Shown: positions 16,298 to 19,864 of the stretch, piece after piece
How the letters are laid out: each line of letters begins with the position of its first letter
Position numbering within the stretch: the first letter of the stretch is position 1
Assembly (NCBI GenBank): GCA_013166775.1
Contig: JABLTJ010000022.1
Coordinates: forward strand, 1 to 56,439
DNA: 56,439 nt
Source: Promethearchaeati archaeon
Lineage (GTDB): Archaea; Asgardarchaeota; Heimdallarchaeia; Heimdallarchaeales; Heimdallarchaeaceae
Reading direction: 5' to 3'
Program-made: the position numbers and the translations under genes
Notes under the pieces: generated by a model
Told to the model about the DNA's origin: nothing
Databases searched by the model: none
Seen by the model: the letters and a program-made list of their open reading frames with translations, nothing else

Positions 16298-17281
16298 TTA
16301 GAATCCCATTGTATTCAAAATGTGTTTTACTATCTTGAATTTATATCCTACATTAATAACATCGTTAACATTAGTAGTCATACCAATCAATAATTTACCT
16401 TCAGAACAATCCTCAACTATAATTTGCACTACTTCAGCGTTCAGTGCTTTTATTTCGTCTTCCGATCTAATCATCTCATAGATAACTCGTGGAAAATTGG
16501 TTATTGTTTCTAGAACATAGATAATCTTTCTCTCTTCAAGATTTCCTGCGTACAGCTCTCCCATTACTCCGTCTTCCTTTGGAAAAATATATGCGGAAGC
16601 AGAGGCTGCTTTACATCCCCTTATCGAAGAGAATAATAATGAAGTGATTGCTCTCTTATTTGCTTCATCAAGTATTTCCTGTGTCATCTCACTTGTAGGT
16701 ATTTTGGGTACTGTTTCAAACGGTCTTATTCTCTCATATGTTTCTAATCTGGCTTCCATTCTTTCTTGTTCTACTGTCTTTATCGTAGGAACAATCTCTT
16801 GTTCTTCAATCCCTCCAGTTGGAACAATCTCTTGGTCTAATTTCTCGATACCAATACGTGTAAAGACTTTATTCAACTCTTCCCTATAAGTAGCAACATT
16901 CTGGATTTTCTTTATAACGGTTTTTGTTAGATTGGAAGGAGTATCGTGAATTAAAGCATTTAGAATTGTAGATCCTAGTAATTTCACATATTCCAGAATT
17001 CTAGGTCTAATTTCTGCACCTATATTTTCAACTCGTGAAACAAATAAGATAGTTACATCAAAAAATGTGATATAAGTTGCCCTGTACTTTCCTCGAAATA
17101 TGGTGATTTCATTATACCTTCTTACCCATTGATAGAATTCAATAGGTTGGATGAAATATCTATGAACCTCTTCTTTTTCAAATTCATTAATAATTTGCTC
17201 TAATTCAAAAATATTAATACCTTCTAAATTATAAACAATTACTGCAACTAAAGGACTAATATCAATTTTAGGGAAAGGCAT
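16298..17281 (-). CDS. Hypothetical protein: longin-like N-domain + roadblock-like C-domain (paralog A)
   Basis: The C-terminal ~115 aa align by eye with the 17479 and 18794 proteins. The N-terminus VAVIVYNLEGINIF has a longin-like beta-hairpin pattern. Confidence 0.6.
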   Translation of the reverse strand: MPFPKIDISPLVAVIVYNLEGINIFELEQIINEFEKEEVHRYFIQPIEFYQWVRRYNEITIFRGKYRATYITFFDVTILFVSRVENIGAEIRPRILEYVKLLGSTILNALIHDTPSNLTKTVIKKIQNVATYREELNKVFTRIGIEKLDQEIVPTGGIEEQEIVPTIKTVEQERMEARLETYERIRPFETVPKIPTSEMTQEILDEANKRAITSLLFSSIRGCKAASASAYIFPKEDGVMGELYAGNLEERKIIYVLETITNFPRVIYEMIRSEDEIKALNAEVVQIIVEDCSEGKLLIGMTTNVNDVINVGYKFKIVKHILNTMGF

Positions 17282-17478
17282 AAGACCTCAACTAGAAATT
17301 ACTAGGTATTTTTTGCTAATAAATGTTGTTGGACATCACTTTATATTTAATTTTTAAAATAGAAGTGAAAAAAACACCTTTCCTTTGGCTTTTTATCTCT
17401 CTATTTCATTATTTTAATGTACGAATACAAAGGAAATATTTTTAGATTTTAGTGATATAATCAGTTTGAGGATAAATA

Positions 17479-18060
17479 ATGAGCTCAAAGAAGAAATCAG
17501 ATGAATCTCTATCAAGCAATATTATTACAAGAAAAAGAAAAGTTCCTAAAAAAGATCTTTTTGTTGAAATGGAAGAAACTGCATATGAGACACTAAACAT
17601 CTCCAAAAGAAAAATACAAACTGGTCAGTATCTAAAAGAATTCCTAAAAGAAACTTCTTCAGCTGAAGCTGTTATAGAAGCTATACGCGTTACCATAGAC
17701 GCCCTTCTAGATAGTATAGCATCTGATTTGAGATCTTTATCAGCTGCCGCCTTAGTTCCACACCCCGAAAGCACAGAAACCAAAGCTATTGTCAGAGGTC
17801 CTTTAAGCAGAGACATTGTCAAAAAAATTCTAGGGATTTTTAGAAAATATCCTCCTGTTATAAACGATTTACTGGGATCAGACGAAGAAGTAAAATTTCT
17901 AGATACTGGTATTGGGTATGTAGTTCTGGAAAACTGCCAGAAAGACAATTTTCTTGTCGGGATAGTACAAAAACAAAAAGATGTGGATGAGCTCTCAAGA
18001 AAATTGAGGCATGTACAAAATGTTGTTGTAGATAATACTCTTCTAATCGAAGAATTGTAA
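17479..18060 (+). CDS. Hypothetical protein with roadblock-like domain (paralog B)
   Basis: IDALLDSI...ILGIFRKYPPVINDLLGSDEEVKFLDTGIGYVVLE...FLVGI...ELSRKL. Confidence 0.6.
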   Translation: MSSKKKSDESLSSNIITRKRKVPKKDLFVEMEETAYETLNISKRKIQTGQYLKEFLKETSSAEAVIEAIRVTIDALLDSIASDLRSLSAAALVPHPESTETKAIVRGPLSRDIVKKILGIFRKYPPVINDLLGSDEEVKFLDTGIGYVVLENCQKDNFLVGIVQKQKDVDELSRKLRHVQNVVVDNTLLIEEL

Positions 18061-18075
18061 ATTAACTCATTTTTT

Positions 18076-18729
18076 CTATTGTTTCAGAGAAACTTTACAA
18101 TTCGGACAAATTTTCTCGTTTTTAGTAATTTCAGAGAAACAGTTCCAACAAATTGTTCCTGATAGCTCTTTTTTTGTATAGTCCAAAATCAAGTCTTTGA
18201 TTCTACCTATTAATTCCGAAGCTAGTTTTTTTTGATTTAATCTTCTTTTTACAGTCAAAGGATTGAGCGCTAAATAGAGTATATAAAAGAGGCCACCACA
18301 ACTGACCAATACTGTTCCAAACACTCTCAACATTAGTAATCTTTCCGAAACAATACCTATAACAATAATTGGTATTAGTATAGTCATTACTAAAAGAAGA
18401 ATTAACCATATACTATTTTTCAGTCTTAGAAATTTTTTATCCAACCATTTTCTAACTGATTCAGGAATTAGCACTATTTCTGATGATATTTCAATGTTCA
18501 CTAAATTAGATACCACATCATCCTCTATAGATATTATTTCTCTTTTAATGAATTTTCTTGATTTTAGCTGTAAAGCGTATTCATTGATTTCTTCAATTTC
18601 GTAATTTGTTTGCAGAAATTCCTGTTTGATAAAATCGAATAAAGCAGCAAGATTCTTCACTTTACTTTTAATATCACTTGATGCGAGGATATTTCTTTTT
18701 TTCATGCTATCTGATATTGTTATCACCAC
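18076..18729 (-). CDS. Two-TM membrane protein with C-terminal zinc ribbon
   Basis: Two hydrophobic helices; CWNC...CPNC at the C-terminus. Confidence 0.7.
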   Translation of the reverse strand: MVITISDSMKKRNILASSDIKSKVKNLAALFDFIKQEFLQTNYEIEEINEYALQLKSRKFIKREIISIEDDVVSNLVNIEISSEIVLIPESVRKWLDKKFLRLKNSIWLILLLVMTILIPIIVIGIVSERLLMLRVFGTVLVSCGGLFYILYLALNPLTVKRRLNQKKLASELIGRIKDLILDYTKKELSGTICWNCFSEITKNEKICPNCKVSLKQ

Positions 18730-18793
18730 TATTATTCTAAATAGATATGTATGAAATTTCAGTTTTTGGTTAAGAAATATAAGATCTGTCTAA

Positions 18794-19864
18794 TTAGAAT
18801 GATGATTTCAAAAATTCATCCATCATAATTTTAACCACTTTGAATCTCTTAGCAATGATTGGGATTTCATCTCTATTTTTAGTTATACTTACTAACATCC
18901 CGCTTTCTGCCTCTTCAAGAATAACAACTCCATCCCCTGCATCTAATGTTTTTTCTTCTGTACTACTTTCTAATGTTTGTTTGATAACTTCTGGATATTT
19001 CGAAAGAATTCCTAGGACAAATTCTGCATGCTTTTCTGTCATCCCAAAGGTTAAGGTTTCTAGTCTCCCATCTTCTCCTGTATAAACAAAACATACTCCT
19101 GTTTTTGTAGATAAACCTTTGACAACAGACGAAAGGACTTTTTCAATAGATGTTCTCTTAGTTTCTTCTAACATCTGTTGTGTCAATAGAACTTTTTTAT
19201 CTTCTTTTACTTCTTCTGTTTTTTCAGCTTTAAATCCAATGAATTCAAGAAGTCCTTCAACTTTCTCTTTTCCACCGACAGGTTGACTTGTTAATGGAGT
19301 AGAACTTGTAGTATATGGAGAAGGTGTAGATGTTGGAGGTTGAGTAACTGCTATCTCAGGTTCTACAGGAACTGGTTCTTCTTCCTTAACGATAGCAATG
19401 GGTTCTGCTTCAACTTGTTGTGGTTTCTTTGTTGGATAAAAATCATAACGAACCTGACTGGCTGCTCTCTCTGATATTAAATTACCAAGTTTCTTAATAA
19501 GAGCAGTTTGTGAACGAGGTTCCATTTTATCAATAGCACCATAATCTTGTAACTGTTCAATTAATTTCTGTTTGATAATATTGATAATCTTTACAGATTC
19601 TTGTTCAGGTGAATCAGGTAAGAACATGCAGCTTAATATGATATTATAAAATAGTTGATAATCTATTCTGAATACCTCATTGATTAGAGTGATTGTTTGA
19701 GATTTTTTCAGCTCTTCTCTTATTTTTACGCTGGTGTCTATAACTTGAAAAACAGTAGAAAAAGGTGTTTTTTGATTTATAACTTTGTCAAAAACCATAT
19801 CTTCATCTAATGTAAAAAGACTAAAGCCAACAAACTTGTCCCAGGGTAATTCAAAGTCACTCAT
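18794..19864 (-). CDS. Hypothetical protein: longin-like N-domain, Pro/Thr linker, roadblock-like C-domain (paralog C)
   Basis: IEKVLSSV...VLGILSKYPEVIKQTLESSTEEKTLDAGDGVVILE...LVSI...IAKRFKVVK; linker TQPPTSTPSPYTTSSTP. Confidence 0.6.
   Translation of the reverse strand: MSDFELPWDKFVGFSLFTLDEDMVFDKVINQKTPFSTVFQVIDTSVKIREELKKSQTITLINEVFRIDYQLFYNIILSCMFLPDSPEQESVKIINIIKQKLIEQLQDYGAIDKMEPRSQTALIKKLGNLISERAASQVRYDFYPTKKPQQVEAEPIAIVKEEEPVPVEPEIAVTQPPTSTPSPYTTSSTPLTSQPVGGKEKVEGLLEFIGFKAEKTEEVKEDKKVLLTQQMLEETKRTSIEKVLSSVVKGLSTKTGVCFVYTGEDGRLETLTFGMTEKHAEFVLGILSKYPEVIKQTLESSTEEKTLDAGDGVVILEEAESGMLVSITKNRDEIPIIAKRFKVVKIMMDEFLKSSF

What the first reader, a model, noticed from the sequence alone, without database searches (positions are those of the whole stretch)
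16298..19864. Three clustered paralogs share a ~115-aa C-terminal roadblock-like domain
Seen by eye alignment: ITSLLFSSI / IDALLDSI / IEKVLSSV; VLETITNFPRVIYEMIRSEDEIKALNA / ILGIFRKYPPVINDLLGSDEEVKFLDT / VLGILSKYPEVIKQTLESSTEEKTLDA; IIVEDC..KLLIG / VVLENC..FLVG / VILEE..MLVS; VGYKFKIVK / LSRKLRHVQ / IAKRFKVVK. The helix-strand-strand-helix-strand-strand-strand-helix pattern fits the roadblock/profilin-like fold (inference). Two of the three also have an N-terminal longin-like domain and a linker. The conserved (F/Y)P.VI motif is not one I recognise from standard Robl_LC7, suggesting a distinct family that forms heteromers.
Basis: partly seen in the sequence, partly recalled or inferred. Interest (0 to 1): 0.75.

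Follow-up and report, generated by a model that had tools for sequence, protein, structure and literature searches.

The report
Heimdall archaeal longin-roadblock paralogue trio
Three neighbouring unannotated genes of a Heimdall-group (Asgard) archaeon are old copies of one gene built from the longin and roadblock folds that eukaryotes use as docking platforms for small GTPase switches; the folds are well supported, but no partner, complex or activity is shown.

Summary
Observation confirmed. ORFs A (16298-17281, -), B (17479-18060, +) and C (18794-19864, -) share a ~125-aa C-terminal domain (25-27% identity, shuffle z 17-21). The host is Heimdallarchaeaceae. AlphaFold2 models of A and C give a roadblock fold (Z about 10 to MglB/MglC/CvnB) behind a longin domain (Z 11.1 in C; TM 0.66 in A). 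B has a conserved basic/helical arm instead of the longin domain. Sequence profiles link the trio, in two steps, to a fourth copy D (single-copy across the order) and on to Lokiarchaeal Robl_LC7 domains fused to Rab-like GTPases. A, B and C form one family-specific clade marked by the (F/Y)P motif, all under purifying selection. An acidic protein with the same distribution always lies directly upstream of C. Heteromer formation is unshown: clustering is no better kept than background synteny, A is not found in one genus, and no GTPase gene is nearby. These are not tri-longin GEFs or folliculin-type GAPs. Most likely a small-GTPase docking scaffold (0.5). The scan found this trio before on other DNA.

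The parts
16298..17281 (-). Gene A, 327 aa: longin domain, disordered linker (149-193), conserved pre-domain arm, roadblock domain
   Evidence: ORF; AF2 model pLDDT 78.9, pTM 0.68; dN/dS 0.09-0.10
16853..17260 (-). Longin domain of A (res 8-143); divergent first helix with invariant F43, W52, Y56 and invariant G64, R67 in the strand 3-4 hairpin
   Evidence: DSSP E-E-H-E-E-E-H-H; Z 8.3 to AP-3 sigma; Atlas TM 0.60-0.66 to Sec22/longin/AP-sigma models; conservation
16307..16681 (-). Roadblock domain of A (res 201-325)
   Evidence: VIA Z 10.9 Mon1-Ccz1 chain 9rs7_A (113 aa, 2.6 A), 10.3 MglC, 10.0 CvnB, 9.8 MglB
17312..17324 (-). Conserved AT-rich element upstream of A; likely archaeal TATA box (inferred)
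   Evidence: kept in 11 aligned A/B intergenic regions, four genera
17429..17445 (+). Conserved purine-rich plus T-rich element upstream of B; likely BRE/TATA (inferred)
   Evidence: near-invariant within the genus, looser in three other genera
17479..18060 (+). Gene B, 193 aa: no longin domain; conserved basic stretch and helical arm (res 15-60), then the roadblock domain (res 62-187, window 17662-18039)
   Evidence: top-residue conservation 0.80 (arm) and 0.85 (domain), dN/dS 0.03-0.07. Fold inferred from homology to A and C (HH 97.6-98.7%); B was not modelled alone
18076..18729 (-). Intervening membrane protein (two hydrophobic stretches) with a C-terminal zinc ribbon; accessory, absent from the locus in three of five genera
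18794..19864 (-). Gene C, 356 aa: longin domain (res 10-144, window 19433-19837), disordered Pro/Thr/Glu linker, roadblock domain (res 229-352, window 18809-19180)
   Evidence: AF2 pLDDT 75.9; VIA Z 11.1 AP-2 mu and delta-COP longin, 10.1 CvnB, 9.8 MglB; dN/dS 0.13-0.15
19922..21079 (-).
   Evidence: directly upstream of C, same strand, in every locus read, all five genera; found in 25 of 30 family genomes and 0 of 16 others with this query; alignment; composition

Best explanation
An ancestral longin-linker-roadblock gene (still single-copy across the order as D) gave rise to a divergent copy that triplicated in the Heimdallarchaeaceae ancestor; B then replaced its longin domain with a short basic/helical arm. 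SHOWN: homology, folds (as predictions), clade structure, purifying selection. INFERRED from family knowledge: the roadblock domains pair through their central helix and edge strand into dimers, probably mixed among A, B and C. These form a non-catalytic or allosteric docking platform for one of the genome's many small GTPases encoded elsewhere. The flexibly tethered longin domains add further binding surfaces, and B's basic arm or the acidic neighbour's basic tail brings the assembly to the membrane, in the manner of Ragulator (LAMTOR1 wrapping roadblock pairs) or MglB/MglC/RomR.
For: Folds. Sequence chain to true roadblocks: A/B/C-only vs D-only HH 98.1% (E 1e-13); D-only vs Lokiarchaeal roadblocks 93.8% (E 1.8e-7). 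Those Lokiarchaeal domains are fused to Ras-family GTPases and one passes the Robl_LC7 cut-off, 24.7 vs 23 bits. A+B+C form one branch, 100/100. Each paralogue keeps its own sequence (0.83-0.85 top-residue conservation; dN/dS 0.03-0.15). The genome holds 36 Ras-family matches. Solved Asgard roadblocks are dimers like MglB and LAMTOR2/3, and Asgard GTPase genes generally do not share operons with their roadblock/longin genes (PMC10933270). The acidic neighbour shares the trio's distribution and position.
Against: No GTPase gene lies on the 56-kb contig or in the neighbourhoods read. The genes are on mixed strands with separate promoter-like elements, so they are not one operon. Across genera, 85 of 115 adjacent gene pairs in the loci read are kept anyway (74%), so conserved clustering is weak evidence. 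A was not found in G232 (91% complete, 710 contigs), where its two usual neighbours are adjacent. The first-helix signature of the D-family longins has degenerated in A and C. GAF/IclR-type domains score within 1-2 Z of the roadblocks, so fold alone gives no function.
Confidence: 0.5

Rival explanations
1. Independent homodimers: the three copies are subfunctionalised roadblock proteins, each with its own partner, and lie together only because they arose by local duplication in a slowly rearranging genome.
For: Background synteny is 74%; separate promoter-like elements and mixed strands; A missing from G232 while B and C persist; solved Asgard roadblocks are homodimers (PMC10933270); the ancestral form D is single-copy in the other families of the order.
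Against: The acidic gene-C-B core stays together through rearrangements that break the flanks in four other genera, though this is not beyond chance; eukaryotic paralogous roadblocks and longins usually heterodimerise (PMC10933270).
Confidence: 0.25
2. GTPase-independent adaptor or sensor: the longin domains bind peptides or membrane proteins (like AP sigma/mu or SNARE longins), or the roadblock domain serves as an adaptor or ligand-binding module, possibly with the neighbouring kinase-like, JAMM or membrane zinc-ribbon proteins.
For: C's best longin matches are coat-adaptor and VAMP7 longins; a D-family domain is fused to the cytoplasmic tail of a single-pass surface protein in G037; kinase-like and membrane JAMM genes are nearby; no GAP motif is present (against PMC12290439).
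Against: The kinase-like gene is order-wide and lies 40 kb away in G043; the zinc-ribbon gene is not found in two complete genomes; the nearest outside sequence relatives are GTPase-fused roadblocks.
Confidence: 0.18
3. A true forerunner or counterpart of tri-longin Rab GEFs: A and C pair like Mon1-Ccz1 (longin-longin catalytic layer over a roadblock layer), with B supplying the missing third domain in trans.
For: Foldseek's top hits for the whole A model are Mon1/Ccz1, BLOC-3 and CPLANE chains (E 4e-5 to 6e-4); best VIA hit for A's roadblock domain is a Mon1-Ccz1 chain, Z 10.9; these subunits are longin + roadblock + lamtor-type domains (PMC8833172); weak Intu/Fuz longin Pfam hits in D.
Against: The Foldseek hits have rmsd 17-20 A and TM about 0.23, which reflects the order of domains and not a shared architecture; Z 10.9 ties with MglC and CvnB; the trio is a family-specific clade, so it cannot be ancestral to eukaryotic proteins unless eukaryotes branch inside this family; A is missing from G232.
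Confidence: 0.07

Closest known systems
Roadblock/LC7/MglB superfamily, type with C-terminal helix (MglB, MglC, LAMTOR2/3, Rag C-terminal domains, Asgard Thor-RB and MK-D1 RB)
   Same: Same topology and Z 9-10 superposition over 100-117 residues; two-step profile link to a Robl_LC7-positive domain.
   Different: Below Pfam detection; proline-kinked central helix with few small residues; fused behind a longin domain without a GTPase domain; dimer state unknown.
Longin domains (AP-2/AP-3 mu and sigma, delta-COP, VAMP7, Sec22, TRAPPC2; Asgard longins)
   Same: Strand-strand-helix-three strands-two helices; Z 11.1 for C, TM 0.60-0.66 for A.
   Different: First-helix signature of the D family is lost in A and C; coupled by a 45-75-aa disordered linker to a roadblock domain.
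Tri-longin-domain Rab GEF subunits (Mon1-Ccz1, HPS1-HPS4, Fuzzy-Inturned)
   Same: Longin domain followed by a roadblock-type domain in one chain; paralogous subunits.
   Different: Two domains, not three; no superposition of the two-domain arrangement (rmsd 17-20 A); lineage-specific; no activity shown.
Ragulator (LAMTOR1-5) and the Myxococcus MglB/MglC/RomR system
   Same: Several roadblock paralogues plus a candidate extended tether protein (analogy; PMC10933270, PMC13408092).
   Different: No homology of the acidic protein to LAMTOR1 or RomR was found or tested; longin fusions are absent there; no cognate GTPase is known here.

Membership tests
Roadblock/LC7/MglB superfamily | Five-stranded sheet, helix-2 strands-helix-3 strands-helix | tested here: met
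   DSSP of AF2 models of A and C; Z about 10; B by homology
Roadblock/LC7/MglB superfamily | Sequence homology to recognised roadblock domains | tested here: met
   Indirect: ABC to D 98.1%, D to Lokiarchaeal roadblocks 93.8%; direct ABC to those roadblocks not significant (E 0.4)
Pfam Robl_LC7 (PF03259) | Score over the curated cut-off | tested here: not met
   No hit for A, B, C or 29 aligned members; contig C56 absent from the genome-wide list
Roadblock/LC7/MglB superfamily | Dimer through central helix and edge strand | tested here: inconclusive
   The one complex job gave no verdict; see Tried and rejected
Roadblock/LC7/MglB superfamily | Binds or regulates a small GTPase or other NTPase | not testable with these tools
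   No linked GTPase gene
Longin domain | Strand-strand-helix-3 strands-helix-helix topology | tested here: met
   colinear alignment to the D family
Profilin | Half of the central helix replaced by a three-strand motif (PMC10933270) | tested here: not met
   Central helix is full length, broken only at the proline; five strands only; profilin at rank 47, Z 7.8
Tri-longin-domain Rab GEFs | Three longin-type domains per subunit (PMC8833172) | tested here: not met
   A and C have two, B one
Tri-longin-domain Rab GEFs | Heterodimer with GEF activity between the first longin domains | not testable with these tools
   Needs biochemistry
Folliculin/NPRL2/SMCR8 longin GAPs | GP motif before strand 2 (PMC12290439) | tested here: not met
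   A has Gly without Pro; C has neither
Folliculin/NPRL2/SMCR8 longin GAPs | Arginine finger next to the GP motif | tested here: inconclusive
Rag/Gtr-like GTPases | G domain fused to the roadblock or longin domain | tested here: not met
   No GTPase domain in A, B, C or D

The most novel reading that the evidence does not exclude
A, B, C and the acidic neighbour form a membrane-tethered, four-protein archaeal complex that regulates a Rab-like GTPase: a Ragulator- or Mon1-Ccz1-like machine built independently in Heimdallarchaeaceae by duplication of one longin-roadblock gene.
Probability: 0.15. Interest if true: 0.75.

Novelty: new variant of a known kind. Interest (0 to 1): 0.42.

Why it matters
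Longin and roadblock domains are well-known eukaryotic signature proteins of Asgard archaea, so the folds are no surprise; Liu et al. count 130 such families. What I did not find described in seven literature searches is a GTPase-free longin-linker-roadblock architecture conserved across an order, and its family-specific triplication. It is invisible to Pfam and NCBIfam and annotated as hypothetical (e.g. K9W46_06475 and K9W46_06480 of Ca. Heimdallarchaeum endolithica). With a single-copy ancestral form beside three derived copies, it is a tidy natural test of how homodimeric GTPase platforms turn into heteromeric ones, the step that gave Ragulator, TRAPP and Mon1-Ccz1. It is a side branch and not the ancestor of these, which limits its weight.

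Tried and rejected
Complex prediction of full-length A+B+C, partner C: no verdict (0.01 and 0.16, mark 0.32); not evidence either way. Sequencing runs: no RNA holder listed; not evidence on expression. Pfam, NCBIfam and PDB-sequence searches gave no significant hit for A, B, C; the best PDB sequence hit was a roadblock protein at E 0.18. The ZitR hit for the D profile is a helical-linker artefact. ESM Atlas by features gave only leads. No sign of an internal duplication between N- and C-domains. The Foldseek ranking of Mon1/Ccz1 was rejected as proof of kinship (rmsd 17-20 A). Conserved clustering was rejected as evidence of a complex. The kinase-like, JAMM and zinc-ribbon neighbours were rejected as fixed parts. 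A search for longer fused forms found none above 356 aa, a weak negative. The bacterial promoter scan was at chance level. Whether A/B/C and the family's own D copy form one clade is unresolved (AU p 0.30).

Full report
Observation. The window holds three intact ORFs within the finding: A 16298-17281 (-, 327 aa), B 17479-18060 (+, 193 aa) and C 18794-19864 (-, 356 aa), with an unrelated membrane zinc-ribbon gene between B and C. All 14 quoted motifs are present. The C-terminal ~125 residues align at 25-27% identity, with z 17-21 against shuffles and phmmer E 1e-8 to 1e-12. The N-terminal parts of A and C are not significantly alike directly. None of the three has a Pfam or NCBIfam hit.

Host and distribution. 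Close homologues are named Candidatus Heimdallarchaeaceae/Heimdallarchaeota. A profile of the domain matches 28 of 28 family genomes, mostly four times, and usually once in two other families of the order (one holds Kariarchaeaceae-named proteins). It finds almost nothing elsewhere among 300 genomes sampled from the phylum. The fourth copy, D, lies on contig C72; its orthologues occur across the order. A library-wide profile search returned 32 proteins, all of this kind. The order C-B-A and the orientations are kept in four genera. In the fifth (G232) B and C remain and A was not found.

Folds. AlphaFold2 gives both A and C an N-terminal strand-strand-helix-three strands-two helices domain, a low-confidence linker, and a C-terminal helix-two strands-helix-three strands-helix domain whose central helix breaks at the conserved proline. 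C's first domain superposes on AP-2 mu and delta-COP longins (Z 11.1, 117 aa, about 3 A) and its second on CvnB and MglB (Z 10.1, 9.8). A's second domain matches a Mon1-Ccz1 chain, MglC, CvnB and MglB (Z 10.9-9.8, tied). A's first domain matches AP-3 sigma at Z 8.3 and longin models at TM 0.60-0.66. GAF/IclR domains follow closely, as expected for this fold class. B was not modelled; its fold follows from homology.

Sequence-level membership. D-family proteins have a recognisable longin N-terminus, and the D profile aligns colinearly with A over 285 columns and with C over 246. So A and C are full-length homologues of D whose longin first helix has drifted. An A/B/C-only profile matches a D-only profile at 98.1%, and D-only matches Lokiarchaeal roadblock domains at 93.8%. 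Those domains are fused to Ras-family GTPases, and one passes the Robl_LC7 cut-off. The direct A/B/C-to-Loki comparison is not significant, so the link needs D.

History. In maximum-likelihood trees A+B+C are one side of a branch (99/84; 100/100 without long branches). A and B are each monophyletic; C is so in the first tree and in 82% of bootstraps of the second. The root is not fixed. The (F/Y)Px(V/I)(V/I) motif is in 152 of 156 A/B/C rows and in none of 34 D rows: it marks the clade, not the family. dN/dS is 0.03-0.15, and A and B each have a conserved promoter-like element in their shared intergenic region, so these are maintained genes.

Surroundings. The acidic 385-aa gene at 19922-21079 lies directly upstream of C in all five genera, even where flanks are rearranged. 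It was found in 25 of 30 family genomes and none of 16 others. It has short conserved islands and a basic tail, which suggests a tether (inference). The kinase-like, JAMM and zinc-ribbon neighbours are not fixed. Background synteny is high, 85 of 115 adjacent pairs (this count includes the core pairs), so clustering says little. No Ras-family gene is on this contig although the genome has 36 matches; separation of GTPase and regulator genes is reported as usual in Asgard archaea (PMC10933270).

Mechanism. By established knowledge, roadblock and longin domains dimerise and form platforms for small GTPases (PMC10933270, PMC13408092). I therefore favour a docking or allosteric scaffold of paired roadblock domains, probably mixed, with tethered longin domains and a basic membrane anchor (0.5). 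Every step after the fold is inferred. Rivals are independent homodimers (0.25), a GTPase-independent adaptor (0.18) and a Mon1-Ccz1-like GEF (0.07).

Comparison. The domains belong to the roadblock and longin superfamilies. The proteins are not profilins, not Rag GTPases and not tri-longin GEFs (two domains, no architectural superposition), and they lack the GP motif of folliculin-type GAPs (PMC12290439). Papers on Asgard roadblock/longin proteins report fusions with GTPase, TRAPPC3, DENN and two-component domains; I found no account of this two-domain family or trio. The held library is incomplete and supplementary family tables were not checked.

Verdict. Real, a new variant of a known kind, already noted by this scan in several other genomes. 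Interest 0.42; 0.75 if a GTPase-regulating complex is shown.

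Noticed in passing
window 53154-54062 (+) and 54133-54522 (+): A second, more distant longin protein with a roadblock-like C-terminus, followed by a stand-alone roadblock-like gene without a Pfam hit. Family-wide; 20-38 kb from the trio in three genera but directly beside the acidic gene in genus g10.
   Followed up: partly
L026:8215-9129 (G000:C72:34214-35128): Paralogue D; sits beside a radical-SAM gene and archaeosine tRNA-guanine transglycosylase on one side and a GAF-PAS-HisKA gene on the other. 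Its start codon probably lies about 30 codons upstream of the ATG listed.
   Followed up: partly
L086:1927-4104 (G037:C84): Single-pass surface protein whose cytoplasmic tail has a longin-like domain and a D-family roadblock domain.
   Followed up: partly
L115:2128-5421 and L116:1799-5078: Tandem paralogous roadblock-Rab-like GTPase fusion genes (about 525 aa) conserved in a Lokiarchaeal family.
   Followed up: partly
G011:C191:2879-3449: B appears split in two frames (residues 2-87 and 83-191): frameshift or assembly error.
   Followed up: no
window 21278-22327 (+) and 22373-23215 (+): Order-wide kinase-like protein without a Pfam hit, and a JAB/JAMM protease with a C-terminal hydrophobic anchor.
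   Followed up: partly
window 12185-16220: Kae1/TsaD, B12-binding radical SAM, Bud32-like kinase and AIR-synthase-like genes flank A; ordinary housekeeping context.
   Followed up: no
L121:131-1111 (G033:C81): A 327-aa protein with two tandem roadblock-like domains, the second of the D type.
   Followed up: no
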